Shown in pieces: positions 9,495 to 46,596 of a stretch of DNA of 64,000 bases (the stretch's first letter is position 1; each line of letters opens with the position of its first letter). The notes below the pieces were generated by a model. It was given only the letters and a program-made list of their open reading frames with translations. It searched no databases and was not told where the DNA came from. The stretch spans positions 1,857,260 through 1,921,259 of the forward strand of contig OZ243932.1 of the NCBI GenBank assembly GCA_965214035.1. The letters are read 5' to 3'. The position numbers and the translations under genes were made by a program. The stretch is from Gammaproteobacteria bacterium. GTDB lineage: Bacteria; Pseudomonadota; Gammaproteobacteria; JAJDYQ01.

Positions 9495-9994
9495 TCAGGC
9501 AGAAGGATTCAAACGAGGGTCAGGATCGGCCAGAATCTTATCTGACTGCTGCCGACGGAACGCCATCAGGTTTTCACGAATATCTGGATATTTATTAGCC
9601 AACAGGGCAGTAGCCAACAAAGCGGCGTTACATGCCCCGGCCTGACCGATAGCCACACAACCCACCGGGATACCGGCCGGCATTTGCACGATAGATAGCA
9701 GCGAATCCAGGCCATTCAGGGCATCTGACTTAACAGGCACACCCAATACCGGCAGACAGGTCTTAGCGGCCACCATGCCAGGCAAATGAGCAGCACCGCC
9801 AGCGCCGGCAATAATAACTTCCAGACCACGATCAACAGCCGCAGCCGCATAATCAAACAGCTGATCAGGCGTGCGGTGAGCTGAAATTACCCTGATCTCG
9901 TGAGGAACATCCAGTAGCGACAGAATGTCCGCCGTGTGCTGCATGGTATCCCAGTCAGAGCGCGAACCCATGATAACACCTGCCAATGCCTTCA
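9495..9994 (-). CDS. purE: N5-CAIR mutase
   Basis: PurE motif GSRSDW; start chosen at [10 protein letters not shown] preceded by GGAGGA RBS (track ORF begins 23 codons upstream). Confidence 0.9.
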
Positions 9995-31574: not shown

Positions 31575-31680
31575 TATGCCTGCCTTTAGTCTCTTTTACG
31601 CTAACGAACTGCATAAGTAGCGTGGGCCTTGCCACATCCATGTCGAACGCACTGTCAGCGGAACCTTTGCGCAATACGCT
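31575..31680. other. candidate attC site (R-box-like GCGCAAC ... GTTAGCG with short terminal pairing)
   Basis: Box pattern only; internal pairing weak. Confidence 0.3.
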
Positions 31681-32645
31681 CAAACCAGTGTTGCGCTCTT
31701 GAAGGCTCCCATCGGTGCGATTGAATCGAGCGCTTGCAGAATCTCAAGGCTCAATGGCATATCAAGAGAGGTAAGATTTTCCTCGATACGAGAAATTTTG
31801 CGACTCCCTGGAATCGGAATAATATCTTCGCCCTGTGCAATTAACCATGCAAGAGCCAGTTGCGCTGGTGTCATGCCCAGCTCCGAAGCAATGTTTTTGA
31901 TGCCTTCGAGGCGCTCCAGATTGCTGCTGAAATTCTCACCCTGCATTTTGGGGTTGTGATTACGAAAGTCGTTAGCGCCAAGCTCCTTAATGGTGCCGGT
32001 TAGAAAGCCGGCACCGAGTGGCGACCAACACACAAGTACAGCTCCAATACTCCTGACAGCAGGTAAAATGTCGGCCTCAGCCTCACGGCGAAACAGTGAG
32101 TACTCATATTGAACTGCTGAAACAGGATGCACCCGATTTGCCTCAAGGATTTCATTTGCTTTCACATTAGAAAGACCGATTGCCTTCACCTTGCCCTCTC
32201 GGACCGCTTTCGCCATTGCCGAGACCGTCTCTTCAAACGGTGTTTCAGGGTCCAGGTAATGGGCGTAAAGCAGATCAATTCGTTCGATCCCAAGGCGTTT
32301 GAGACTATTGTCAATCGCACGCTTCACGTAATCCTTCCTGCCGTTTATTGTCAAGGGAAACCCCTAACCGGTGTCTAGTCGGCTCCCCGATTGACCTTCC
32401 TCGAATACGATTCCAAATTTGGTTGCAACAAAAGCACTTTTCCCTGCTTGCTTAATAGCCTGCCGGATCAGTTCCTCGTTGTGACCTGCACCATAGGCAT
32501 CGGCTGAATCGATCATCATATTTTGATCGATCACATGCACCAGAGTTTCTACAGCCACATGGTTATCACTCCGACCATAGTAATCCTCCAGCACCATTGC
32601 ACCATAACCGATTTGTTTCACTGGCTGTGAGTTGACACTGAACAT
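31680..32645 (-). pseudogene. aldo/keto reductase, frameshifted (integron cassette)
   Basis: N-terminal 93 aa (32364..32645) and C-terminal 224 aa (31680..32354) of one AKR in different frames; junction near 32355-32365. Confidence 0.75.
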
Positions 32646-32692: not shown

Positions 32693-32766
32693 AACTAACG
32701 ACCAGACTCACCAGCAGCAATGGAGTTCAGCAGAGTTGCCGTCTGATGCAGTACCTTATTGTATGC
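32693..32766. other. attC-like cassette boundary repeat (family member X)
   Basis: About 75 percent identical to the repeat at 35582-35653; begins AACTAACGACCAG; lies between REase stop and AKR start. Confidence 0.5.
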
Positions 32767-32776
32767 TTTTTTTGTT

Positions 32777-33736
32777 TCACAGCTTGATTAACCAGTCGCA
32801 TAATGAAACAACTTGCTCTTCATTTGTTAAGTTTGCTCCATTTGAAAGAGTGCCATCATTTAATTGCTGATATATCTCTTTCGCCATAGCATTTTCAATC
32901 GCCGCACCAACAAAAAATGTTTCAGGCTTACAGCCTTCCACAGAAAATGCTGCTCTAATCCTATGCAGTGCCGAGTTTGCGGTTTTCCAGTGCTCGTCTG
33001 CTCCCGCAGGATCAATTTCACCCTTTAGTTCTCCCAAAGCAAGATATTTCTCTGGATTATAGTATGCTGAATCCTTATTTCCACCGAAAATAATTTCATC
33101 AGGCGAGCAGTCAAACAGACAAAGATCCACATTCTTTTCAACCGTTGTTACAGTTAAATTGTAAATCAGAGTGTGTTTCTTTTTATTAGTGACCCAGTGC
33201 AGGCCTTTAACCTGCTTCTCAATTTCAGGCTCAGAGCTGGAGGACACCCATTTCCTTTTATTTGAATCAAGGTATTCAAAACTTGTTCCGCTTATGGAAC
33301 AGGTGGACACGAAAATTCTTGCAAATCTCCATTCACCTAATGATCCAGCCAGATTTCTCATGCTGCCGCCCAATGAATCACCTCTGGTAAGCAAGAAACG
33401 ATAAACCAGCTCATCAATAAATGACTGACCAGAAGGTTCCAGAAAATTTTCGATTAAACCCTTTATTGCCTCTTGTTTATCCTCTTCTCGCAAATGGTTT
33501 TTCGCCTTGTCAGAAATCCCTGATGCTGTAAGTAATGAATTTTTGATTTCACGTACTTTTAACAAATCTTTTGGCATTTTTGCTTGTGACGCATAAATCT
33601 TGAGTGCCTTGGCTTCTTCAATAAACGGAGTTGCTTTCCTGTTCTTTTCTAATGCTAACGAAATAAACCCTGCCCGTGTTTCCTCATAAGGAGTTATCAG
33701 GCTTTTATATGATTTTAAGTGGCTGTTAAATGGCAT
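32777..33736 (-). CDS. putative type II restriction endonuclease (partner of adjacent methyltransferase)
   Basis: 319 aa; 4-bp spacing from the MTase gene, same strand; no recognisable family motif. Confidence 0.5.
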   Translation of the reverse strand: MPFNSHLKSYKSLITPYEETRAGFISLALEKNRKATPFIEEAKALKIYASQAKMPKDLLKVREIKNSLLTASGISDKAKNHLREEDKQEAIKGLIENFLEPSGQSFIDELVYRFLLTRGDSLGGSMRNLAGSLGEWRFARIFVSTCSISGTSFEYLDSNKRKWVSSSSEPEIEKQVKGLHWVTNKKKHTLIYNLTVTTVEKNVDLCLFDCSPDEIIFGGNKDSAYYNPEKYLALGELKGEIDPAGADEHWKTANSALHRIRAAFSVEGCKPETFFVGAAIENAMAKEIYQQLNDGTLSNGANLTNEEQVVSLCDWLIKL

Positions 33737-33739
33737 TTA

Positions 33740-35071
33740 TTACCCCTTTTTCCATACATACACACACTTCCTTAAAGAGGCCCGCCCATGCCTGCCCATT
33801 TGTTGAGAACTATTGCCTTTACCTTGAGGCAGGACAAGGATATTGACTACTTGAAAATCGATTGTTTCAGCTATTTTTGAAAGCATTGTATCCACAGATA
33901 TTGCTGCACCAGCATATCGAACATTGTCATTGACCATAAACATTAAGCCGCCACTGTTTAAAACTCGATAGCATTCCTGGATGATATAACCCATTTCATA
34001 GAAATAACCTCTGACCATACGAGCGATTCCACTATTATTAAGTTCTTTTTGGCCCTTCTTATAGTCTAAATAATTCAATATCTTCTGCAATAAAGGCAAA
34101 TTGTCACAAATGTCTATGGCTGTCTGCCAATTATGGTTAAAACAGATAAGCTCCTTTGATTTATTTTCTACCGTGCAACTTAACATTGCCTGTCGCAAGC
34201 CAAACAACTCATTTTCATTGATTCCCAGTATGGCATGTTCAAGCGCATAGGTGCGTGTATAGTCGTAACGATTACAGTAAGGAGGAGAGGTCATTATTCC
34301 TGAATAAGCACAATCTTTTAAGGTCGGCAGAATATCCAAACATGAACCTTTTGATAAATTAATTTCTCCGGCTCTTATATTCCTCCGCAAATCTGAGAAC
34401 AGATCCTCTTTGCCACTACCATGATCCATATCATTTTTTATTTCATTCAGCTTTTTTAGAATAGCCTCATCGAATGAAGAAATCCGTCTTTTATCAAAAG
34501 CGTTTTTACTATTCTTGCGCTCGGCTCTGTAATCCCATCGAAGATACTGCCCGTCTTTTCTTGTATAGCCAATGGACTCAAGCACACATAACAGAGCAAA
34601 TAGTAATATATCCTTTATTTTGAGGAGTTCATGTTCCAGTTCGTTTAGATATCGGCCTATTTTTTCATGTGTCTCTGAAGAATATGCTCCATCAGTGATG
34701 CGAAGTACTTCAAAATTTTTAATTTCGCCTTTAGTACTCCAGGGTTTCTGAAGCAGCCATTTTTCTAATCCATCAATAATATTTTGTTTATTCGCACCTC
34801 TGGCAAGGATATTTGCACTGATGATTTTTTGCCCAACGGGTAAGACCTCAATTCCCTCGGAGTCATAGCCCAATGAGGAAGATGCGAATAAGGCCGTACC
34901 TGCACCGGCGAAAGGATCAAGTATCTTACCGTGAATGACATGATATCTACAAAAAAGATATTCCACCAAATCTGCGGAAAAAGCCTCTTTATATTTATAC
35001 CACCTATAGTATGTGCGGGCTTTATTGGCCTGAAAACTAACCAGCTTTCTGGTCAGAGCATCATCAACCAC
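33740..35071 (-). CDS. DNA methyltransferase (N6-adenine or N4-cytosine, alpha-type motif order)
   Basis: 443 aa; motif I DPFAGAGT about 200 aa before motif IV SPPY. Confidence 0.8.
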   Translation of the reverse strand: MVDDALTRKLVSFQANKARTYYRWYKYKEAFSADLVEYLFCRYHVIHGKILDPFAGAGTALFASSSLGYDSEGIEVLPVGQKIISANILARGANKQNIIDGLEKWLLQKPWSTKGEIKNFEVLRITDGAYSSETHEKIGRYLNELEHELLKIKDILLFALLCVLESIGYTRKDGQYLRWDYRAERKNSKNAFDKRRISSFDEAILKKLNEIKNDMDHGSGKEDLFSDLRRNIRAGEINLSKGSCLDILPTLKDCAYSGIMTSPPYCNRYDYTRTYALEHAILGINENELFGLRQAMLSCTVENKSKELICFNHNWQTAIDICDNLPLLQKILNYLDYKKGQKELNNSGIARMVRGYFYEMGYIIQECYRVLNSGGLMFMVNDNVRYAGAAISVDTMLSKIAETIDFQVVNILVLPQGKGNSSQQMGRHGRASLRKCVYVWKKG

Positions 35072-35581: not shown

Positions 35582-35653
35582 AAATAACGACCAGGCCCAC
35601 TAGCATCAATGGAGCACAGCGCAACTGCCGTCCGGTACAGCGCATTGTTAGAG
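35582..35653. other. attC-like cassette boundary repeat (family member Y; R boxes AAATAAC / GTTAGAG)
   Basis: Homologous to 32693-32766; cassette-strand R'' CTCTAAC exactly complements GTTAGAG formed with first bases of upstream cassette. Confidence 0.5.
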
Positions 35654-37408: not shown

Positions 37409-38672
37409 TCAATCGATTGGCACCACGAGAATACCAAGCGTACCACAAAACAAACCCAAGATGTAGAGTGCCAACCACCAGCGAGAATTGAATTTCTCCC
37501 AAGAGTTCTTCCCTTTCCATGATTGAATCTCCCATCCTGCGCGACCGATCACTCCCCAAGCTACCATAAGAATAACTTTTCTTGATAGTACGAACTCTAG
37601 AATATTATTGTCTGGAGCCTTCATGAAAAATTTTGAAGTTGAGGATGATAGTTCATTTAGCTTAAGCGGCTTATCACTGTTGCTATTTAGAAGTATAGAC
37701 TTTCTTAAATCTAATCGAGTACTTATTAAACTACTGTGAGTTGCGATAATTATTTGATTTTGATGGGACTCTGATATTTTTGAAATAAGCCTTTTCATGT
37801 TGCTGTGGCTCAGATGATTTTCAGGTTCCTCTAAAAGGAGGGTATCTAACGTATTATTTTCAGCGTTACGATTCAGAGCGAATTCAGTTTTTATGAAGCA
37901 CTGCTGCCCTTGTCCTTTAGCATCTATCGGAATATCACCTTGAGTCAGAGTGATGTCAGCTTCCAGATTGTATTTTGACCCTGAGCGTATGGCCAGCTCG
38001 TAACTGCCTAATCCAGCATTAATATCTTTGAGTTTATTCTCTTTGAATTGTATTTTTTGTAACCGATATTCGTTGCTCAGGCTTACTCTATTTGCATGAT
38101 CTACAATGGAATCATAGACTGTTCTTATGTATTCGTTGTTTGCATGCTCGCTATTAATTTTTGAGCTATCTATTGTTAGACACCTAAGGAATCGGCGATA
38201 ACCGGAATATGTCTCACCATTAAAAGTAATGAATTTAACAATATAAAATTCAAATGGAAAATTTCCGTTATCTAATGCTAAGACCTGATTAATTTCATTG
38301 ATTAGCTCTTCATTAGGAATGACAAATCATATGCAGCCCGCTAGCATTGATATTTTTCGAATTGTGTTTTCCGTAAATATCGGGATTTGTTTCATCACTC
38401 AAATAAGCTTCGACATGAACTTCAGGTAAGTTCTCAAAAGTCTTTTCACCCGCTGAAAATTCAGTTATCGATCCCTTATTAAGAATGGACTCAATACCTG
38501 TAGTCTCAACTTTATGCCTGCTTCCGCTGGAAAGCAGTTCGATTGCTTGTAATATTGAGCTTTTGCCGGCTTCATTATCTCCAATGATAGTATTAATCTT
38601 CGAATCAAATTCGACTTCAAATTCTTTGAATCTTTTATAGTTAATGAGCTTTAGTTGTTTTATGTGTTGCAT
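37409..38672 (-). pseudogene. AAA/ABC-type ATPase (AAA_21 / OLD-like ATPase domain), frameshifted
   Basis: Walker A GDNEAGKSS (38672..38313), then one open frame to 37409 carrying Walker B LLLEEPENHL and H-loop QIIIATHS; single frameshift near 38313-38330. Confidence 0.7.
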
Positions 38673-38839: not shown

Positions 38840-39651
38840 CTATAGATGCAATCTTCCATCAAACACAATCACTGCTTCTCCACGAATCATTAACTGGTCC
38901 CCAGCCAACTCTAAGCTCATTGAGCCTGTGCGTTTCGACGATTGGAAGGACTCTAGTTTGGTCCTCCCTAGACGGATAGACCAGTACTTAGCAAGGAAGG
39001 TGTGAGTGCCCCCAGTTACAGGGTCTTCTTCAGTGCCACTCCAAGGCCAGAAATATCGGGAATGGAAATCGAATCCGTCTGCGCTAGAGCGCGCAGTAAC
39101 TAATACGCCATTGATCGAATCATGGGACGCTAGGAGCGCCGCGAAATCAGGGCTGAGGCTCGCGAGTAGTTTCGTGTCGTCGATTTCAAGGAGAAGGATG
39201 CGTGTCTCTTCATTGTAAACCGCATTGCTGACACTATCGATTCCCAACGCTGCGAGTAATGGCCCTGGCACGTCGCATGGGTGCGTATCGTAAACAGGAA
39301 ACTCCATTTCAATCTTATTCGCGCGTTTAGTCGCGACCAGACGGAGCCCTTGAGTATTAACGAATGTTGTTTCCTCTACTCCGAATTCAGTAAACACGAT
39401 TTTCGCGCGATGCCAAGGTGGCATGGCCGCATAGCGGAATTTCCATTTTCGGAGAGAAGTACCGAATTGAGTACTCGCCCGTGCCGTTCAGTTCTGTAAT
39501 GAAGGCGGTTTCCGAAAGCATTTTGCTGCGTACCGTGTATCTCAGAAGTCCCAGAAGTTGATTTACGATGTCTAGGAAACCACCAGGCAAAAAATGCCAC
39601 TACTACTCCAAGAGCTGCAATTATCAATCCCGCAACTTCGATACTCATCAC
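38840..39651 (-). pseudogene. PhzF-family (phenazine biosynthesis-like) protein, frameshifted (first cassette)
   Basis: PhzF motifs split over three frames (LSETAFITE...LCGHATLAS in 39590..39387; PVTGGTHTFLAKYW in 39424..38840). Confidence 0.7.
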
Positions 39652-39820: not shown

Positions 39821-40190
39821 ATGAAATCTCCCTTTTTGAACCTGACTCAAGAGCGCTTACGGCGATTGAACTACTCTCTCAGAACCGAAGAAAACTATTT
39901 AAGCTGGATTAAGCGCTATATCCTGTTTCATGGCAAACGCCATCCCACTGAGCTGGGCAAGACAAAAATGGAAGTATTTTTAACGAATCTGGCCGTTCAG
40001 AGAAAAGTGTCTGCTTCAATGCAAAGTCGGCATTGATATTTATGTATAAGCAAGTGCTGGATATGAAATCACCTTGGGTTGATGGCATGGTGCGAACCAA
40101 ACAGAAAAATAAAACCCGGTGATGTTCTCCCACCATGCTCAGATAGTGCGAGTTGTCCAATTTGATTATCTTGTAGGGCGCACCAGATAC
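39821..40190 (+). pseudogene. intI: integron integrase IntI, N-terminal fragment with frameshifts
   Basis: RLRRLNYSLRTEENYLSWIKRYILFHGKRHP...VFLTNLAVQRKVSAS aligns with IntI1 residues about 20-80; continuation (ALIFMYKQVLDMKSPW; PVMFSHHAQIVR) in other frames. Confidence 0.75.
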
Positions 40191-40561
40191 CAACTGACTA
40201 AAACCAGACCGCCAAAACCCGTATATAACACCATGAAAACCCATTCTGGAGCGTTGTAGTAAAGTAAGCTTTGCAACCAATGCTGTATAAACGAACCTGA
40301 ATATGTTTCTAACTGAGCTTCTTCCCTCAGGGCCATTTCCCAAATGGTTAAAGGACAAATGGCCCCAACCCATGATTGGATAACCACTATGGTAATAGCG
40401 ACCAGATGAGTTATTCGAAAAGCCCGATTTCTTATCCAGCACCATTTGAGGGCATATCCAAGATAAATTGCAACAAGCCCGAACACTACAAAAAAAACAA
40501 ATAGTACATGTATAATTAAAATGGCATCAGCCAGAAATATTAACAGCAATTCTTTCGGCAT
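40166..40561 (-). CDS. DUF2784-like small membrane protein
   Basis: 131 aa, 4 TM helices; 3' end overlaps intI N-fragment convergently. Confidence 0.5.
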   Translation of the reverse strand: MPKELLLIFLADAILIIHVLFVFFVVFGLVAIYLGYALKWCWIRNRAFRITHLVAITIVVIQSWVGAICPLTIWEMALREEAQLETYSGSFIQHWLQSLLYYNAPEWVFMVLYTGFGGLVLVSWYLVRPTR

Positions 40562-40753: not shown

Positions 40754-40846
40754 ACATAACGATTGCGGCAACCGGCGCAGCCCACTGTCTGTCCCGCATA
40801 GCGTCAACCCTCGTTTCCCGGCGTCAGGCTCATTGCGTTGTTAGGG
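40754..40846. other. attC-like repeat (R boxes ACATAAC / GTTAGGG) downstream of GmrSD operon
   Basis: Same box pattern and partial homology (CTAACAA.GC, AGTGGGC) to repeats at 32693 and 35582; no strong internal palindrome. Confidence 0.4.
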
Positions 40847-41284
40847 CGCACGGCCCGAGTGCAGTATTTTCCATTGGAGATAACTTTTCAGTTGTGACGC
40901 CAACTTCTCGGGAAAACACTCCAGAATCTCAATCCACGACAACTGCTTGATGATGACATTAGTCTCAAGTTGCCAGTCCTCATCCCCGAAGACATTGGCC
41001 GAGCGACCAGCACCCAGTACGATAAAGTTGTTCACCCTCGGCATGGCCCGTCGCGCTTGAGTCTCACAATACCTTACTCGAAGATCTAGCTGGCTACGAT
41101 TTCCGGCGACACCCTGACCTGTGTTTAGCTTCGAGTTCCACTTCGCCTCGCCGAGAAGAAGCGTGGTGTCTGAACGAAGCGCGAAGTCGATCTCTGGCCC
41201 GCCACTTGACTCAGGCTTCTCAGGGTGAGGAAGTCTGCGCCAAAGCCAACAAACTGGGGCATCGGTAACTGTTGCTACGCCCAC
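40841..41284 (-). CDS. PD-(D/E)xK nuclease core (C-terminal half of split HsdR-N-like nuclease)
   Basis: 147 aa; IDFALRSD...LLGEAKW matches D-(x)n-E-x-K; in frame with upstream ORF, separated by a single TAA. Confidence 0.5.
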   Translation of the reverse strand: MGVATVTDAPVCWLWRRLPHPEKPESSGGPEIDFALRSDTTLLLGEAKWNSKLNTGQGVAGNRSQLDLRVRYCETQARRAMPRVNNFIVLGAGRSANVFGDEDWQLETNVIIKQLSWIEILECFPEKLASQLKSYLQWKILHSGRAP

Positions 41285-41806
41285 TTATTCGAGGATGCGA
41301 TTAAAGACGCTTAGCCGTGTGCTGGCGGGCGCATAGGCAAGACTCCCAAATACGCTCCATGTCACAGCGTCCTCGCTGTTCAGAGACTGTAGGTCCGTGT
41401 AGTGGCCCAATCCCGACGTTGCGGCCTCGGAGTCTTTCCCGGTACAACCCTCGAATTTGCTGCTCGCGTAGTATTTCTGGAGAAGCTCTGGCGTAGGCCA
41501 AGGAGAACATGTTCTGACCATGCTGTCGTCCGGGTGTGTAGTGACCAGCACACCGCCTCTGCTTTCAGCTAGAGAGATAGTCCTATCTTCGAGCCAAGGG
41601 TTGATGACATTGAGCCGCTCGCGCAGCACCGGCAGCATCACGACCTCGGTGAGGCTCTCCCGATGGGTGTCAGCCGGGGTCTGCTTCATACCCATCAGGT
41701 CGATGATCTCCCAACCCAAGCTCGCAAGCTGGTCGAGCAGCGGCTTCTCGACGTGGTTGCGCTCGTCAAGCTTAATCTGCTTCGGCGTTTTGCCTGGGGA
41801 GATCAT
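41285..41806 (-). CDS. HsdR-N-terminal-like domain protein (N-terminal half of split nuclease)
   Basis: 173 aa; EKPLLDQLASLGWEII...ESLTEVVMLPVLRERLNVINPWL resembles type I HsdR N-terminal helix. Confidence 0.5.
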   Translation of the reverse strand: MISPGKTPKQIKLDERNHVEKPLLDQLASLGWEIIDLMGMKQTPADTHRESLTEVVMLPVLRERLNVINPWLEDRTISLAESRGGVLVTTHPDDSMVRTCSPWPTPELLQKYYASSKFEGCTGKDSEAATSGLGHYTDLQSLNSEDAVTWSVFGSLAYAPASTRLSVFNRILE

Positions 41807-43920
41807 TCTGAAGCTTCTCCATTGGGCTTTTCGCCGTCGACTGTTCCAATAAACAGTAGTTTCTCCCGTGCCTTGTCATCGGCGAAATGAATGTTCCAAC
41901 GCTTCTCCATGAATTTCAGCAACTGAATGCCTCGCTCGCGAATTTCATCGGGGCCCCAATCCTTGTAATTAGAGACTTCGATTTCAGAGTGCGAACCATC
42001 TGCATAGCCGTTGCGGATCTTGCTGCCATCGCGATTGTACTTGGGCTTTTTCTTTTCAGCGAAGGCGTTGTTCTGTAGCGAAGAGTTGATCGCGGAAGAG
42101 AGGAGCAAAAGGTTCCCGAGGCTATTGCGGTACGCCTCCCGCTCTCGTTCGCGAATACCTTTGAAAGCTGGCTTCCAAGCCGCCGTCTCGGACTGCGGGC
42201 AAATGTGCTCGATGGATATCTTGTCCTTCGGCGACTTGAGCAAATCTGCCCAGTCAACCTTCTTGTCGCGACTCTTGGACAGCAACCCCAACTCGTACTC
42301 GTAGAGGAAATACCGCAAGCCGGGCCAGTCGTAGTAGCCCTGACCGTTCTCGAATTTCTTCTGAAGCAACAGATAGAAGTCATCATTCGCAAAATGGCCC
42401 TCATCCGTGAAAGTAAAGCTCATCCGGTCACGCAGTCGCTCCTTCAGTTCCGCCAAATCCATGTCGCCACGGTCGATCGCGCGTACCGCGTTGCTGAACT
42501 CCGAGCTGCGATAATTCGAACGGGTTTGGGTCAGCCGGAACACGACGAAGATAAACCGTTCGATCTCCTTGAATGTACCGATACGCTGAACGCGATCATT
42601 GCATTTCTTCAGAATCGCCATCAGCAACGGGCGAAAGTACGCCATGCCCAGCCGATTCAGACGTTGAATCCATTCAATTTCTTCCCGGGTCAAATCGCCG
42701 GACATTTCGGGGTAAAACGTGCAGAACCAGTGAACCGAAGACGCCTTGAGGCTCTTGACGTAGTCGCGAATCTCTTTCGGCCGCAACTCAGCGGCCATCA
42801 TCGGGTCGCTGCTTTCCACCTCGTCCAGTCCGTTCTCGTCGTCCGCTTCCAGGTCCGCGTCAGATGTCTGCTCCTCGGCTTCCTCCAGTTCAACCAGTTG
42901 AACGATCTTGCGATGAACGCGCTGCGGTGTGAACTGCTCCTCCAGCAGAAACTTGATGTAATCTCGCCCCGTCTGCCGAGAGTACTTGAAATACATCATC
43001 CAGTGGCCCCGCAGAAAGTCGTCGTCGTTCAGCGGCTTCGACTTGTTACGCCCCAACTGGAAGTAAACCTCCTTCCAAGCTTTGTTGATTAAGTCACGGA
43101 GATCGCTGCGCTCCGCGGGGTCCAGTTCCGCATCGGTATAGAGGGTCGTCAGGTAGATCAAACGATTCTTGAGCAATTCCAGATCTGAAAGCGTCTTGCC
43201 GCGGTTGTTCATCGTCTCGAAGGCGACGAAAACGTCGAACTCATCCTTGATGATGTACTCGTTAAACAGGAACCGTTTGGTCAGCATGCGGTACATACCT
43301 TGAAGCCCTGAGAGTCCTTCTTTTTCGTGCCAAGCTCGTAGTTGCTCTTTGAAGTAGTGTTTCCCATTGCTGAGATTGAGCGTATAGAACGTCTCGAACA
43401 CCGTGCCACCGCCCTCTTCGCCCAGAATTCGGTACCGCATGTACTGGTCACTGGGGTTGTCAACCGTGTAGCCGAACTTGTACGTCCGAAAGGCTTCCCC
43501 GGCCGGTTTCACCTCGAACAGAAACTTTCTTTCGACGGCCGCGATGCTGAGCGTATCGGTCAGGCAGATCGCGTCATCCACCTGACCCTTGTTTTCAGGC
43601 AAGCTGCGAAGCAACTCGATGAAGGCTTGCAGAAACAGCGTGAACGTCGTCAGCCGCTGCTGACCGTCGACGATGTGGTACACCTTGTACGAATGGTCAT
43701 CAACCAGCCAAAATTCCTTGTCATCCTGCTGAATGTCGGCGGATGGAATCTCCTTCAGAGTCAGCACACCGGTATAGTGGGAGCGACCGTCGGGCAGGTT
43801 GATGAGATCCTCCCAGAAGGCGTCCAGCTGCTCGCGTCCCCAGGCGTAACCACGCTGGTAGTCGGGAATTCGGAACAGCCTCTCCTTGAAGAGGCTATCG
43901 AGTGGTTTGGGTTCGTCCAT
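41803..43920 (-). CDS. GmrSD-like DUF262 (ParB/Srx-like NTPase) + DUF1524 (His-Me finger nuclease) protein
   Basis: 705 aa; DGQQR motif (IVDGQQRLTTF) N-terminal; HIEHICPQS...N HNH-like motif C-terminal; GC-rich by eye. Confidence 0.8.
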   Translation of the reverse strand: MDEPKPLDSLFKERLFRIPDYQRGYAWGREQLDAFWEDLINLPDGRSHYTGVLTLKEIPSADIQQDDKEFWLVDDHSYKVYHIVDGQQRLTTFTLFLQAFIELLRSLPENKGQVDDAICLTDTLSIAAVERKFLFEVKPAGEAFRTYKFGYTVDNPSDQYMRYRILGEEGGGTVFETFYTLNLSNGKHYFKEQLRAWHEKEGLSGLQGMYRMLTKRFLFNEYIIKDEFDVFVAFETMNNRGKTLSDLELLKNRLIYLTTLYTDAELDPAERSDLRDLINKAWKEVYFQLGRNKSKPLNDDDFLRGHWMMYFKYSRQTGRDYIKFLLEEQFTPQRVHRKIVQLVELEEAEEQTSDADLEADDENGLDEVESSDPMMAAELRPKEIRDYVKSLKASSVHWFCTFYPEMSGDLTREEIEWIQRLNRLGMAYFRPLLMAILKKCNDRVQRIGTFKEIERFIFVVFRLTQTRSNYRSSEFSNAVRAIDRGDMDLAELKERLRDRMSFTFTDEGHFANDDFYLLLQKKFENGQGYYDWPGLRYFLYEYELGLLSKSRDKKVDWADLLKSPKDKISIEHICPQSETAAWKPAFKGIREREREAYRNSLGNLLLLSSAINSSLQNNAFAEKKKPKYNRDGSKIRNGYADGSHSEIEVSNYKDWGPDEIRERGIQLLKFMEKRWNIHFADDKAREKLLFIGTVDGEKPNGEASE

Positions 43921-43986
43921 CGCGATACTCGTTGATTAATTATGGGAATTATATGGGAATTATATACTTGACTCCCTAGTGTCTCG

Positions 43987-44649
43987 TCATATTTCTTGTG
44001 TTGGATATAGTCGTTTTAGTTTGATGCGCGCGTCTTCAGTTGTGAACTGCCAATCCACCTGAGTCTGCAGGCGGTCCCGTGAGGCTTGCCAGGCAGCGAC
44101 CTCACGTGCGAGTATGTCCATACGGTCGATACGCCGATTCAGGCATTGGCGGTTCATGACATTGAGTTCGATTTCAGCCACATTCAGCCAACTACCGTGC
44201 TTTGGGGTGTACACGAACTCGAATCGGTCCCATAGTGCTTTGGCTTGTGCCGGTGGGTAGGCTTCATAGAATGCACCGGGGCGGTGGGTATTGAGATTGT
44301 CCATGACCAAGGTGATGCGGGTGGCATCCCGATAGCGTGCGGCGATGTCGGAGAGGAACTGCGCCCAATCGGTTCGGGTTCTACGTTCGGTTACTTGGGT
44401 CATCCGCTTGCCAGCCAAAGGTTCGGTGGCCATGAAGACATTACAGGTTCCACAACGCTGGTATTCGTAGTCGTATCGGGCTGGCTGTCCTGGACTCATG
44501 GCAACCGGCGTACGAGTCTCCCGAATCAGTTGGCGCGGTGTCTCGTCCATGCATACTACCGGGAAAGCGGCATCGTAGGGACGCCGGTAAACATCCAGCA
44601 CCTTTTCCATCGCGGCGACGAACTCGGCGTTGCCTTGTGGCGGAATCAC
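43987..44649 (-). CDS. IS630-family transposase, DDE catalytic part (orfB)
   Basis: 220 aa; DDE motifs (VVCMDE, VMDNLNTH, SWLNVAE). Confidence 0.85.
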   Translation of the reverse strand: MIPPQGNAEFVAAMEKVLDVYRRPYDAAFPVVCMDETPRQLIRETRTPVAMSPGQPARYDYEYQRCGTCNVFMATEPLAGKRMTQVTERRTRTDWAQFLSDIAARYRDATRITLVMDNLNTHRPGAFYEAYPPAQAKALWDRFEFVYTPKHGSWLNVAEIELNVMNRQCLNRRIDRMDILAREVAAWQASRDRLQTQVDWQFTTEDARIKLKRLYPTQEI

Positions 44650-45122
44650 CCATCCGACCCGCGGCCATGGTTTGAGTTCGTTTTTTTTAGAACCCGTCGC
44701 ACGGTTTCATGGGACACCGAATCAATGTAACCCAGTTCCACAACCCGGTCGGCCAAGAGCCGCAACGACCATTGCGCGTAACCCGCCGGAGCTTCATCAC
44801 AGGCCAAAGCCACCAGACGCGCCTCGAATTCGCCGTCGGCCTTACGAATATAGGTGAGCCTGCGCCCTTGGCGGCCTCCTAGCGCCGCATCCAGACCTTC
44901 CTCCACAAACCGCTTCTTCACTCGATCCACCTTGCGCATGCTGATGCGTAGTATGTCCGAGATGGCTTCCCCAGTGGAATGCCGATCATTGAAAACACCT
45001 TCATCGCAGTTGAGCAGGATCAACGCATTAATCACCTTTTGGGACCGATGCGAACCCTTGTTCGTGATACCTGTCAATTCATCTCGCTCCGCTTCGTCCA
45101 ACGTCACCCTATAGCGTTTCAT
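44646..45122 (-). CDS. IS630-family transposase, N-terminal HTH part (orfA), joined to orfB by frameshift
   Basis: 158 aa; HTH domains; A8 slippery run (coding strand) at 44684-44691 at the orfA/orfB overlap. Confidence 0.8.
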   Translation of the reverse strand: MKRYRVTLDEAERDELTGITNKGSHRSQKVINALILLNCDEGVFNDRHSTGEAISDILRISMRKVDRVKKRFVEEGLDAALGGRQGRRLTYIRKADGEFEARLVALACDEAPAGYAQWSLRLLADRVVELGYIDSVSHETVRRVLKKTNSNHGRGSDG

Positions 45123-45206
45123 ACATTCAACCTCGTCTTAAACAGAAAACAAGGAATCTATCATATTATATGCGACATATCATGTATGACGAGACACTAG
45201 TCTCCA

Positions 45207-46068
45207 TTAATTAAAGCACGAAGATTGGTTGCCAAGTGGTTTAAATCGAAGATGTAAATGCTTGCGGCCAGCATGATGCCAGACACCGTACAGCCCTCGG
45301 CGCAACAGTGCCCAGACGCTTTCGATGCTGTTCGTATGGATATCGTTCGCACCGACATACTCCCCGGCACTGTGCTTGACGTGTCCATGCTCGTATCCGG
45401 CCAGTCCTTGATAGGCGGTCGCTTCCTCCGTGTAGACCGATGATCCCTTCTTGACGTGTTGCTTGATGGTGCCCTGTAGCGTCTCCTTCTTGGTATCCCC
45501 TACTGGCATCGCCACGGTGCGTCCAGTCGCCCGTTCTCGCAACCCTACGACCGCTTGCTTACCGACCGCTCCCCGACCTTCATGTAACTTTTTCCATTCG
45601 TGTTTGTTCTTTTCCTTACCGCCGATATAAACCTCATCGACTTCGACTTCACCGGACAGCATCCCGCCATCACTGCCATCACCACAGGCCTCACGGATAC
45701 GCACCTGCATAAACCAAGCGGTCTTTTGTGTCACTCCAATCTGCTTTGATAATTGCAGACTGGATATCCCCTTGCGTTCCGTGACCGTCATGTAGATCGC
45801 GTAAATCCACTTGTGTAGGGGAACGGATGACCGCTCAAAGATCGTTCCGGTACGCACCGTAAATTCCTCGTTGCAGTCTTTGCATCGGTAGTACCCCAAC
45901 CGCTTTCCCTACCTGGCGTAGATGTTGCCAAAGCAACCGCAATGAGCACAAACGGGCGTACCTTTCCAGCGCTGTTGCTCAATGTAGCATCTGGCTGATT
46001 CAGCATTGGGAAACTGCTCAAACAGTTCGACCAGGGAAATTGTGATATTATCTTTCATTGTGCTTTCC
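45207..46068 (-). pseudogene. IS1595-family transposase with in-frame TAG
   Basis: N-terminal zinc ribbon MKDNITIS...CAHCGCFGNIYAR then in-frame TAG (about 45900) then GKRLGYYRCKDCNEEF...DDE region to 45207. Confidence 0.7.
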
Positions 46069-46129
46069 TATTGACATGACCCATTTTATAACGCAACAGC
46101 TAGGGAGTCAAGTATATAATTCCCAAAAG

Positions 46130-46520
46130 TTATTGGTTATGCGCAAAGCAGAGTTTGAAGAGGATTTGGCCGCCGGGTTAGTGGGGTTTTTATGCCCGAT
46201 GCTTTGATGCGCAAATATCCAGATGCACAACGTGAGTGGATTTGGCAATATGTTTTTTCCTCGCCAAAATTATCACAAGACCCAAGAACAGGAATAGTCA
46301 GGCGCCATCATATTTATGAGCAATCTATTGGACGAGCGATTAAACAGACAGCACGTGATGGACAAATAGCAAAAAGAGTGAGTGCTCACACCTTCAGGCA
46401 TTCGTTTGCCACGCATCTGCTTGAGGCAGGCTATGACATTCGTACCATTCAAGATTTATTGGGGCATAAACATGTAGAAACCACAATGATTTATACCCAT
46501 GTGCTCAAATCGGGGGGACA
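46130..46520 (+). pseudogene. intI: integron integrase IntI, C-terminal fragment (5'-truncated at IS1595 end)
   Basis: [25 protein letters not shown]...[16 protein letters not shown]...[45 protein letters not shown] matches IntI C-terminus including IntI-specific insert and catalytic Y; frameshift near 46180; no stop. Confidence 0.8.
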
Positions 46521-46596
46521 GGGGGGCAGTCGCCTTTGGATGTATTGTAATACTATCCTGACAAGCGAGGCTTTATTAAAATCCTGTCACTATCTT

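What the first reader, a model, noticed from the sequence alone, without database searches (positions are those of the whole stretch)
40841..43920. GC-rich operon: GmrSD-like DUF262/DUF1524 protein plus an HsdR-N-like PD-(D/E)xK nuclease, a candidate anti-phage system
A 705-aa protein with an N-terminal DGQQR (DUF262, ParB-like NTPase) domain and a C-terminal His-Me finger (DUF1524) has its start at 43920 and is co-oriented with two further ORFs; its stop overlaps the start of the next ORF (41803-41806). Together these ORFs form a roughly 320-aa protein with an HsdR-N-terminal-like helix and a D...EAK nuclease core. The segment is visibly more GC-rich than the surrounding AT-rich cassettes. 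It sits between an IS1595 element (38 bp upstream of the start codon) and an attC-like repeat. The pairing of a GmrSD-type modification-dependent nuclease with a standalone HsdR-N-like nuclease is not a standard named system.
Basis: partly seen in the sequence, partly recalled or inferred. Interest (0 to 1): 0.8.

Follow-up and report, generated by a model that had tools for sequence, protein, structure and literature searches.

The report
Orphan GmrSD gene beside chimeric pseudogene
The first gene is an ordinary, intact GmrSD-type restriction enzyme, but its supposed partner is a dead fusion of two unrelated gene fragments, so this is not a new two-gene defence system.

Summary
The 705-aa ORF (41803-43920, minus strand) is a genuine GmrSD-family type IV restriction enzyme. 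It has both Pfam domains, the DGQQR and EHICP motifs, 80-91% identity to hundreds of database proteins, and dN/dS of 0.08-0.16.

The "HsdR-N-like PD-(D/E)xK nuclease" downstream is not a gene. It is an in-frame chimera carrying a nonsense codon.
- Codons 1-74 are the 5' stub of the type I restriction gene hsdR. In other genomes hsdR follows this same GmrSD with the same ATGA overlap.
- Codons 75-321 are an unrelated 257-aa integron gene cassette that has lost its first 10 codons.
- The two parts are joined at a 5-6 bp microhomology (41585-41590).
- TAA at 41285-41287 replaces a conserved Ser codon (TCA).

Neither gene family is found near the other: 0 of 58 genome loci of the 257-aa family carry a GmrSD, and 0 of 16 GmrSD loci carry the family.

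The GC-rich block (40760-46124) is a mosaic. It holds a cassette remnant, the hsdR stub, GmrSD and a defective IS1595 with a nested IS630. It sits between two fragments of a dead integron integrase.

Low interest.

The parts
41803..43920 (-). Intact GmrSD-family (DUF262 + DUF1524) type IV restriction enzyme gene, 705 aa. DGQQR is at aa 85-89 (nt 43668-43654) and the EHICP His-Me motif at aa 571-575 (nt 42210-42196).
   Evidence: Pfam GmrSD_N E=4e-30 and GmrSD_C E=2e-20. The best PADLOC model is HEC-06, E=2e-47. It is 91% identical to the full-length proteins P0121 and P0122. dN/dS is 0.08-0.155.
41585..41806 (-). 5' stub of a type I restriction hsdR gene (codons 1-74). It starts with the native ATGA overlap with the GmrSD stop.
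   Evidence: About 90% DNA identity to the first 74 codons of the hsdR that follows the same GmrSD in L002 and L006. tblastn with the 1062-aa HsdR of L006 matches only aa 1-77, and nowhere else in the window.
41585..41590 (-). Junction between the hsdR stub and the cassette ORF. GAAGAT is shared microhomology (hsdR GAGGAC, cassette GAAGAG).
   Evidence: Homology to hsdR (L002, L006) stops here and homology to the L001 cassette starts here.
40841..41584 (-). Remnant of a 257-aa PD-(D/E)xK-fold cassette ORF (family codons 11-257 plus the stop codon). It is fused in frame to the hsdR stub.
41285..41287 (-). TAA nonsense codon (codon 174 of the chimera). It replaces TCA (Ser110) of the intact cassette, upstream of the catalytic PEID...EAK residues.
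40754..40848 (-). attC of the 257-aa cassette, with R' core GTTATGT at 40760-40754. It is degraded relative to the L001 copy.
   Evidence: Homology to L001 ends exactly after GTTA. The L001 copy folds as a long hairpin at -21.9 kcal/mol. The window copy reaches only -11.4 kcal/mol, no better than shuffled sequence.
43955..46124 (-). Defective IS1595-family element with perfect 25-bp inverted repeats. Its transposase has an in-frame stop and the flanks show no target-site duplication. It joins the GmrSD upstream region to intI codon 178.
   Evidence: Inverted repeats. Pfam DDE_Tnp_IS1595. In-frame stop and flanks AATTATAT versus AAAAGTTA. intI mapping.
43979..45197 (-). IS630-type element nested in the left end of the IS1595, flanked by duplicated TA. 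The transposase is split at an A8 run, and a -1 shift restores the frame. It is co-oriented with GmrSD.
   Evidence: Pfam DDE_3 and HTH_32. Inverted repeat I1. Junction sequences. A promoter-like site lies on the minus strand at 45192-45165.
40166..40561 (-). DUF2784 membrane-protein gene, the next cassette after the 257-aa cassette. Its 3' end lies within about 60 nt of the intI N-terminal fragment, and no attC was identified there.
   Evidence: Pfam DUF2784 E=4e-30. Sequence. intI mapping.
39821..40107 (+). Integron integrase pseudogene, N-terminal fragment (aa 1-99, one frameshift).
   Evidence: Pfam Phage_int_SAM_4. Matches VchIntIA 2a3v. tblastn with IntI P0386 gives 71% and 62% identity.
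46124..46547 (+). Integron integrase pseudogene, C-terminal fragment (aa 178-319, two frameshifts). It starts at the IS1595 right end.
   Evidence: Pfam Phage_integrase. 2a3v residues 183-312. 92% identity to P0386 over aa 196-311.

Best explanation
The region is a rearrangement scar in a decayed chromosomal integron, not an operon.

The only intact gene is a solitary GmrSD-family type IV restriction enzyme. By inference from the family, its DUF262 NTPase domain (DGQQR) and DUF1524 His-Me nuclease domain (EHICP) would cut modified phage DNA.

In its native setting this exact GmrSD sits inside a type I restriction-modification operon, directly upstream of hsdR, with an ATGA stop/start overlap. 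Here only GmrSD and the first 74 codons of hsdR were retained. At a 5-6 bp microhomology the hsdR stub was joined, in frame by chance, to codon 11 of an unrelated single-gene integron cassette. That cassette encodes a 257-aa PD-(D/E)xK-fold protein of unknown role. The fused frame has also acquired a TCA-to-TAA nonsense mutation ahead of its catalytic residues, so it is a pseudogene.

On the other side, 34 bp upstream of the GmrSD start, lies a defective IS1595 carrying a nested IS630. The IS1595 has no target-site duplication and abuts codon 178 of a dead integron integrase.

One single-step route would give one IS-anchored junction and one microhomology junction (inferred, not shown). Incoming [IS1595]-GmrSD-hsdR DNA could have undergone homology-facilitated illegitimate recombination, anchored on a resident IS1595 copy in intI. 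That would have deleted the 5' half of intI, attI and the first cassettes.

GmrSD has lost its operon promoter. If it is expressed, transcription would have to read through from the co-oriented IS630 (inferred).
For: - GmrSD identity and integrity. Purifying selection, dN/dS 0.08-0.155.
- Native context: L006 has hsdM-hsdS-(OLD/UvrD pair)-GmrSD-hsdR(1062 aa)-YgjP-Mrr. L068 also carries a full hsdR, and L002 carries an IS-truncated hsdR.
- hsdR stub: 90% DNA identity over 74 codons, then abrupt loss of homology. No other type I R-M sequence is in the window.
- Cassette origin: 94.6% nt identity to the P0001 cassette of L001, from codon 11 through the attC, ending exactly at the GTTA core.
- L001 is an array with 12 copies of a 102-nt repeat, and an attC hairpin lies immediately upstream of the P0001 ORF. 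The family is also a cassette in L029, which has 16 copies of a 111-nt repeat.
- Nonsense codon. dN/dS is 0.51 in the cassette part, and its attC is weakened.
- No co-occurrence. tblastn with GmrSD finds nothing in 58 genome loci of the family. No Pfam family is shared by more than 3 of 150 neighbouring ORFs. The family is absent from 16 GmrSD loci.
- No family member has an HsdR-like N-terminus.
- IS anatomy. intI fragments.
Against: - The stop codon could be a sequencing error. In that case a 321-aa chimeric protein with an intact nuclease core would be encoded, and I cannot exclude this without reads.
- The fusion is in frame, which happens by chance only one time in three.
- dN/dS for the cassette part rests on only about 39 substitutions.
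- The order and mechanism of the rearrangements are inferred. No relative with the ancestral arrangement was found.
- GmrSD expression and activity are untested. The consensus scan found no promoter-like site in the 34 bp left upstream of the gene.
Confidence: 0.85

Rival explanations
1. GmrSD and the downstream roughly 320-aa HsdR-N-like PD-(D/E)xK protein form a functional two-gene anti-phage operon of a new type.
For: The ORFs are co-oriented with a 4-nt stop/start overlap. Both halves have nuclease-related homology. The locus sits among mobile elements and other defence-type genes, such as a BsoBI R-M cassette.
Against: The ATGA overlap is inherited from the native GmrSD-hsdR junction. The downstream frame is a chimera with a TAA ahead of its catalytic residues. 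No homolog has this architecture. The two families never co-occur in 58 plus 16 loci.
Confidence: 0.03
2. The TAA is a sequencing or assembly error, or is read through. The HsdR(1-74)::257-aa fusion would then be an expressed neo-gene, translationally coupled to GmrSD, that provides an extra nuclease activity.
For: Apart from the stop, all invariant family residues are present: SEDA, WLWRR, GGPEIDF, GEAKW, Q..LR. The fusion is in frame and inherits the coupled ATGA start.
Against: TAA is a strong terminator and the change from TCA is a single substitution. The fusion has lost the family's first 10 residues, including strand 1 of the AF2 model. dN/dS is raised and the attC is decayed. Neighbouring features are also pseudogenised: intI has frameshifts, the IS1595 transposase has a stop, and several cassettes are truncated.
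Confidence: 0.07
3. The whole block, including GmrSD, is inert DNA. GmrSD lost its operon promoter when it was separated from the type I R-M genes and is silent, on its way to decay.
For: Only 34 bp of native upstream sequence remain before the IS1595 end. No sigma-70-like site was found there. Everything around it is decaying.
Against: The ORF is full length with intact motifs and a low dN/dS relative to its homologs. The co-oriented IS630 has a promoter-like site, and no terminator-like site lies between it and GmrSD. Orphan copies of this GmrSD with short hsdR stubs persist intact in several unrelated genomes.
Confidence: 0.3

Closest known systems
HEC-06 (GmrSD-like single-gene defence; Payne et al., bioRxiv 10.1101/2024.01.29.577857)
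   Same: It is the best PADLOC model for this protein (E=2e-47). It has the same DUF262-linker-DUF1524 layout. It shares the DGQQR motif and the EHICP nuclease motif, both shown by mutation to be needed for HEC-06 defence. The paper reports GmrSD-like genes as often embedded in Hma and type I R-M systems, which matches the native context seen in L006 and L068.
   Different: The window protein is 705 aa, whereas the HEC-06 models are about 560-570 positions, and the match comes in two stretches only. Here the gene is orphaned from its host system. Activity and target modification are untested.
GmrSD / BrxU / SspE family of type IV (modification-dependent) restriction enzymes
   Same: Both Pfam domains score above their curated cut-offs. 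There is weak sequence similarity to solved DUF262 and DUF1524 proteins (9jfl, 7dri) and to SspE (6jiv).
   Different: It is only distantly related to the characterised members (E=1e-6 to 4e-3 against PDB chains). It has no NCBIfam equivalog. No dnd/ssp or BREX genes lie nearby.
Type I restriction enzyme R subunit (HsdR)
   Same: Codons 1-74 of the downstream frame are 79% identical in protein and about 90% identical in DNA to the N-terminus of bona fide 1062-aa HsdR proteins that follow the same GmrSD.
   Different: Only positions 2-60 of the 198-position HSDR_N profile are present, and the score is below the cut-off (20.6 versus 25.1 bits). There are no ResIII or helicase domains. It is a stub, not an HsdR-N-like domain protein.
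Uncharacterised 257-aa PD-(D/E)xK-fold family (P0001 and relatives; no Pfam, NCBIfam or PADLOC model)
   Different: The window copy lacks the first 10 codons and its upstream cassette boundary, and it is interrupted by TAA. Elsewhere the family is a stand-alone gene with no conserved neighbour, sometimes an integron cassette.

Membership tests
GmrSD family (type IV restriction enzyme) | N-terminal DUF262/GmrSD_N domain with the DGQQR NTPase motif | tested here: met
   PF03235 scores 105.8 bits against a cutoff of 33.2. DGQQR is at aa 85-89.
GmrSD family (type IV restriction enzyme) | C-terminal DUF1524/GmrSD_C His-Me finger nuclease motif | tested here: met
   PF07510 scores 73.6 bits against a cutoff of 23. 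The motif reads SIEHICPQS...NLLLLSSAINSSLQN, aa 569-617. It aligns to the DUF1524 structure 7dri.
GmrSD family (type IV restriction enzyme) | NTP-stimulated cleavage of modified DNA, giving phage restriction | not testable with these tools
   This needs cloning and phage or enzyme assays.
HEC-06 (PADLOC) | Best match to the HEC-06 profile among defence-system models | tested here: met
   PDLC04154 E=2.2e-47, in two stretches, with the best stretch covering aa 12-316. The EHICP motif is shared. The protein is about 140 aa longer than the models.
Type I R-M-embedded defence gene | Flanked by hsdM/hsdS and a complete hsdR in the same orientation | tested here: not met
   Only a 74-77 codon hsdR stub is present in the 64-kb window, with no hsdM or hsdS. 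The feature is met in homologous loci L006 and L068.
HsdR / HSDR_N domain protein (claimed for the downstream ORF) | Complete HSDR_N PD-(D/E)xK nuclease domain | tested here: not met
   PF04313 scores 20.6 bits, below the cutoff of 25.1. Only profile positions 2-60 of 198 are matched.
PD-(D/E)xK nuclease superfamily (downstream ORF, family part) | Conserved D...(D/E)xK motif on a restriction-endonuclease-like fold | tested here: met
PD-(D/E)xK nuclease superfamily (downstream ORF, family part) | Uninterrupted coding sequence in this window | tested here: not met
   TAA at 41285-41287 replaces Ser110, and the first 10 codons are replaced by the hsdR stub.
Integron gene cassette | ORF followed by an attC whose homology ends at the G/TT recombination point | tested here: met
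   Window-to-L001 homology ends at ...AATCGTTA. The L001 attC forms a hairpin. The L001 and L029 arrays are documented. The 5' cassette boundary is missing in the window.
Two-gene defence system (GmrSD + PD-(D/E)xK partner) | Conserved co-occurrence of the two genes across genomes | tested here: not met
   0 of 58 family loci carry a GmrSD by tblastn. GmrSD domains are not among the Pfam families shared by the 150 neighbouring ORFs. 0 of 16 GmrSD loci carry the family.

The most novel reading that the evidence does not exclude
This highly conserved GmrSD (75-92% nt identity across the compared loci; close homologs, 80-91% protein identity, named from Gammaproteobacteria, Chloroflexi and Planctomycetes) may spread as a compact module tied to the conserved 5' end of hsdR.

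- Between unrelated loci, homology starts only 0-76 nt upstream of its ATG and ends inside the first codons of hsdR.
- Several loci keep an orphan GmrSD with an hsdR stub of 11, 17, about 32 or 74 codons.
- Others carry a second, diverged hsdR 5' fragment immediately upstream of GmrSD.

This pattern would fit insertion into, or replacement of, the 5' end of resident hsdR genes by homology-facilitated recombination. The window would then be one misfired example.
Probability: 0.15. Interest if true: 0.45.

Novelty: new member of a known kind. Interest (0 to 1): 0.15.

Why it matters
It matters mainly as a caution. Tight co-orientation and overlapping stop and start codons near mobile elements can mimic an operon. 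Here the overlap is inherited from a different, lost partner (hsdR), and the apparent partner is a fusion pseudogene. Filing this as a new GmrSD-plus-nuclease system would pollute defence-system catalogues.

There are three smaller positive points.
- It is a clean, base-resolved example of an illegitimate, microhomology-mediated junction beside an IS anchor inside a decaying integron.
- It gives evidence that this GmrSD lineage survives as an orphan after its type I R-M host operon is lost.
- It points to an unannotated PD-(D/E)xK family of 455 clusters that travels as an integron cassette.

Tried and rejected
- Source genome or close relatives. Exact-sequence look-ups of the window's GmrSD, RpoD and DUF2784 proteins, and of the nearest IntI (P0386), all returned nothing. 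The genome-contig scan did not return the source genome. The ancestral arrangement therefore could not be seen directly.
- Extending the intI N-terminal fragment beyond about aa 99. I tried by eye and with a PDB search of the frameshifted translation. There was no support, and tblastn with P0386 stops at aa 99.
- A strict attC scan (R''/R' cores plus a forced hairpin) over 29-47 kb. It found only one clear site in the cassette array, at 38827-38720. It was too strict to map the array and was not pursued.
- A conserved partner gene for the 257-aa family. None was found. A DGQ[QH]R motif scan of its loci gave one DGQHR ORF in L013 that is not adjacent to the family gene.
- PADLOC, NCBIfam and Pfam assignment of the 257-aa family. 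There were no hits, apart from a sub-threshold DUF7268 hit in one of 50 members.
- An HsdR-like N-terminus as a natural variant of the family. Members with N-terminal extensions (P0244, P0286, P0246, P0254, P0262, P0063) show no similarity to HsdR.
Full report
**What is at the coordinates.** On the minus strand there is a 705-aa ORF at 41803-43920. After it come two ORFs, 41285-41806 (173 aa) and 40841-41284 (147 aa), which are in fact one reading frame. Translating 41806-40841 gives 321 codons with a single internal TAA at 41285-41287. GC content is 0.535 for the 705-aa gene and 0.55-0.60 for the downstream frame. The cassettes to the left are at 0.42 and the whole window is at 0.48. The physical observation therefore holds, with the correction that the 'two ORFs' are one interrupted frame.

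**The 705-aa protein.**
- It matches Pfam GmrSD_N (105.8 bits, cutoff 33.2) and GmrSD_C (73.6 bits, cutoff 23).
- Its best defence-system model is PADLOC HEC-06 (E=2e-47), followed by the Orf5, SspE and mREase_IV models.
- DGQQR is at aa 85-89 and EHICP at aa 571-575. These are the two motifs shown by mutagenesis to be required for HEC-06 defence (bioRxiv 10.1101/2024.01.29.577857, read).
- It is 80-91% identical over its full length to at least 120 database proteins. The sources name these from Halomonadaceae, Xanthomonadales, Chloroflexi and Planctomycetes, among others.
- dN/dS against three of them is 0.08-0.155.
- Similarity to solved structures is weak: a DUF262 protein 9jfl, a DUF1524 domain 7dri and SspE 6jiv.
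- Overall it is an intact, ordinary member of the GmrSD family.

**Native partner of this GmrSD.** I looked at where close homologs are encoded.
- In L006 the gene sits in hsdM-hsdS-(OLD-type ATPase and UvrD-type helicase)-GmrSD-hsdR(1062 aa)-YgjP-Mrr. The GmrSD stop overlaps the hsdR start by 4 nt.
- L068 has the same arrangement with a full hsdR.
- L002 is the closest relative, at 91%. There hsdR is cut by an IS after 359 codons.
- Other loci retain only short hsdR stubs of 11 (L004), 17 (L067) or about 32 codons (L069, L070).
- The paper cited above notes that GmrSD-like genes are frequently embedded in type I R-M systems.

**The downstream frame is a chimera.**
- Window 41806-41585 (codons 1-74) is about 90% identical in DNA to the first 74 codons of hsdR in L002 and L006. 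Similarity then stops abruptly after ...NPWLED.
- tblastn with the 1062-aa HsdR, and with the HsdM, HsdS and YgjP proteins of L006, finds only this 77-residue stub in the whole 64-kb window.
- From codon 75 onward the frame is 94.6% identical in DNA to a single-gene integron cassette in metagenomic contig L001 (protein P0001, 257 aa). The match starts at the cassette's codon 11 and runs through the stop codon and the attC. It ends exactly at the recombination core ...AATCGTTA.
- L001 is a typical chromosomal cassette array with 12 copies of a 102-nt repeat. An attC hairpin ends 20 nt before the P0001 start codon.
- The junction is GAAGAT at 41590-41585. It is shared imperfectly by both parents (hsdR GAGGAC, cassette GAAGAG), which makes it a microhomology join.
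- The internal TAA corresponds to TCA (Ser110) in L001.

**The 257-aa family.**
- Homologs are about 257 aa and cover only about 79% of the chimera. None carries the HsdR-like N-terminus.
- A profile search of 1.84 billion representatives finds 455 clusters. The few members with N-terminal extensions have unrelated sequence there.
- The family has no Pfam, NCBIfam or PADLOC model.
- Its alignment has invariant SED (80-82), WRR (125-127), GPE-D (139-143), E156, K158 and W159.
In the window, however, the stop at codon 174 lies ahead of PEID (204-207) and EAK (220-222). Neither fragment can contain a complete core.
- dN/dS for this part is 0.51, from about 39 substitutions.
- Its attC has lost most of its pairing, at -11.4 kcal/mol against -21.9 for the L001 copy.

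- A scan of one genome per species found 58 loci encoding the family. tblastn with the window GmrSD finds nothing in them.
- The two ORFs on each side of the family gene in 41 loci (150 ORFs) share no Pfam family in more than 3 cases. GmrSD domains are not among the shared families.
- One DGQHR-type ORF occurs somewhere in L013 but is not adjacent to the family gene.
- Conversely, none of the 16 GmrSD loci contains the family.
- The family is a stand-alone gene and is sometimes an integron cassette, as in L001 and in L029, which has 16 copies of a 111-nt repeat.

**Surroundings.**
- Thirty-four bp upstream of the GmrSD ATG begins an IS1595-family element, 43955-46124, with perfect 25-bp inverted repeats.
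- Its transposase has an in-frame stop. Its flanks (AATTATAT and AAAAGTTA) are not a target duplication.
- Nested in its left end is an IS630-type element, 43979-45197. It is flanked by duplicated TA, and its transposase is split at an A8 run where a -1 shift restores the frame.
- Both transposase genes are co-oriented with GmrSD.
- The only promoter-like site on the minus strand is at 45192-45165, inside the IS630. No terminator-like site lies between it and GmrSD.
- The right end of the IS1595 abuts codon 178 of an integron-integrase pseudogene (46124-46547, two frameshifts).
- An N-terminal integrase fragment (aa 1-99, one frameshift) lies at 39821-40107, on the same strand.
- Between the two fragments lie, in order, a DUF2784 cassette gene, the 257-aa cassette remnant, the hsdR stub, GmrSD and the ISs.
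- Cassettes to the left of the integrase include several truncated genes and a BsoBI-type R-M pair.
- The rest of the window is ordinary chromosome: htpG, rpoD, dnaG, nadE, pilS and pilR.

**Most likely history and function.**
- Shown: GmrSD is intact and conserved, and its downstream neighbour is an hsdR stub fused to a truncated, nonsense-bearing cassette ORF.
- Shown: the block is bounded by an IS1595 without a target duplication on one side and a microhomology junction on the other, and the integron integrase is dead.
- Inferred: foreign or translocated DNA of the form [IS1595]-GmrSD-hsdR... replaced the 5' half of intI, attI and the first cassettes. One crossover would be in an IS1595 copy and one illegitimate crossover at GAAGA. 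This is the signature of homology-facilitated illegitimate recombination.
- Inferred: GmrSD may still act as a solitary type IV restriction enzyme, transcribed by read-through from the IS630.

**Comparison with the known, and verdict.**
- The first gene is a new member of a known and experimentally validated kind: the GmrSD/HEC-06-like single-gene type IV defence, typically embedded in type I R-M operons.
- The proposed pairing is an accident of rearrangement and the second 'gene' is a pseudogene.
- The most novel reading not excluded concerns the GmrSD lineage rather than the finding. It is described under 'noticed in passing' and in the novel case. Interest is low.

Noticed in passing
L002:9821-9970; L004:9898-9969; L005:6866-6937; L003 about 9950-9990; L068 and L065 about 70 nt upstream of the GmrSD start: In other genomes the same GmrSD is preceded by a second, diverged fragment of hsdR 5' coding sequence: HsdR aa 46-96 in L002 and aa 1-26 followed by a stop in L004, L005 and L003. 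It is followed by hsdR or an hsdR stub. Between unrelated loci, DNA homology starts only 0-76 nt before the GmrSD ATG. This might mean the gene spreads by recombination at the conserved hsdR 5' end.
   Followed up: partly
window 39821-40107 versus 46124-46547: The two integron-integrase fragments do not overlap (aa 1-99 and aa 178-319), but they differ sharply in similarity to the nearest full-length IntI, P0386: 71% for the N-terminal fragment and 92% for the C-terminal fragment. They may be remnants of two different integrases (two integrons in tandem) rather than one interrupted gene.
   Followed up: partly
window 32780-35071, with repeats at 32693-32760 and 35582-35649: A BsoBI-type restriction endonuclease (Pfam E=5e-143) and an adjacent DNA methylase, in low-GC DNA, are bracketed by two copies of a 68-nt attC-like repeat. 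This looks like a type II R-M system carried as an integron cassette.
   Followed up: no
window 38313-38672, 38840-39424, 31680-32354: Several cassette ORFs are gene fragments: the N-terminal 119 aa of an AAA_15/OLD-type ATPase, the C-terminal part of a PhzF-like protein, and an aldo-keto reductase starting at profile position 81. The array looks heavily eroded by deletions, which fits the dead integrase.
   Followed up: no
window 43979-45197 (IS630) and 45200-46124 (IS1595): The IS630-type transposase is split at CTAAAAAAAACG (about 44650). A -1 shift on the A run restores ...VLKKNELKPWPRVGWVIPP..., so this may be programmed frameshifting or a slippage mutation. The IS1595 transposase carries an in-frame stop (..GNIYAR*GKRLGYYRCKDC..).
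   Followed up: partly
L001:3365-4138; L029:9938-10771; proteins P0001-P0120: The 257-aa family is an unannotated PD-(D/E)xK-fold family (455 clusters at 50% identity, no Pfam, NCBIfam or PADLOC model). It is a stand-alone gene without a conserved neighbour and travels as an integron cassette in at least L001, L029 and the window.
   Followed up: partly
L006:6470-9923: In the full type I R-M operon of L006, an OLD/TOPRIM ATPase and a UvrD-type helicase (a Gabija-like pair) are embedded between hsdS and the GmrSD gene. That puts two different defence modules inside one type I operon.
   Followed up: no
window 43935-43965: The 11 nt just outside the IS1595 left inverted repeat (GGGAATTATAT) repeat the first 11 nt of the repeat itself. 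This is a tandem duplication of the IS tip at the junction with the GmrSD upstream region, and it is unexplained.
   Followed up: no
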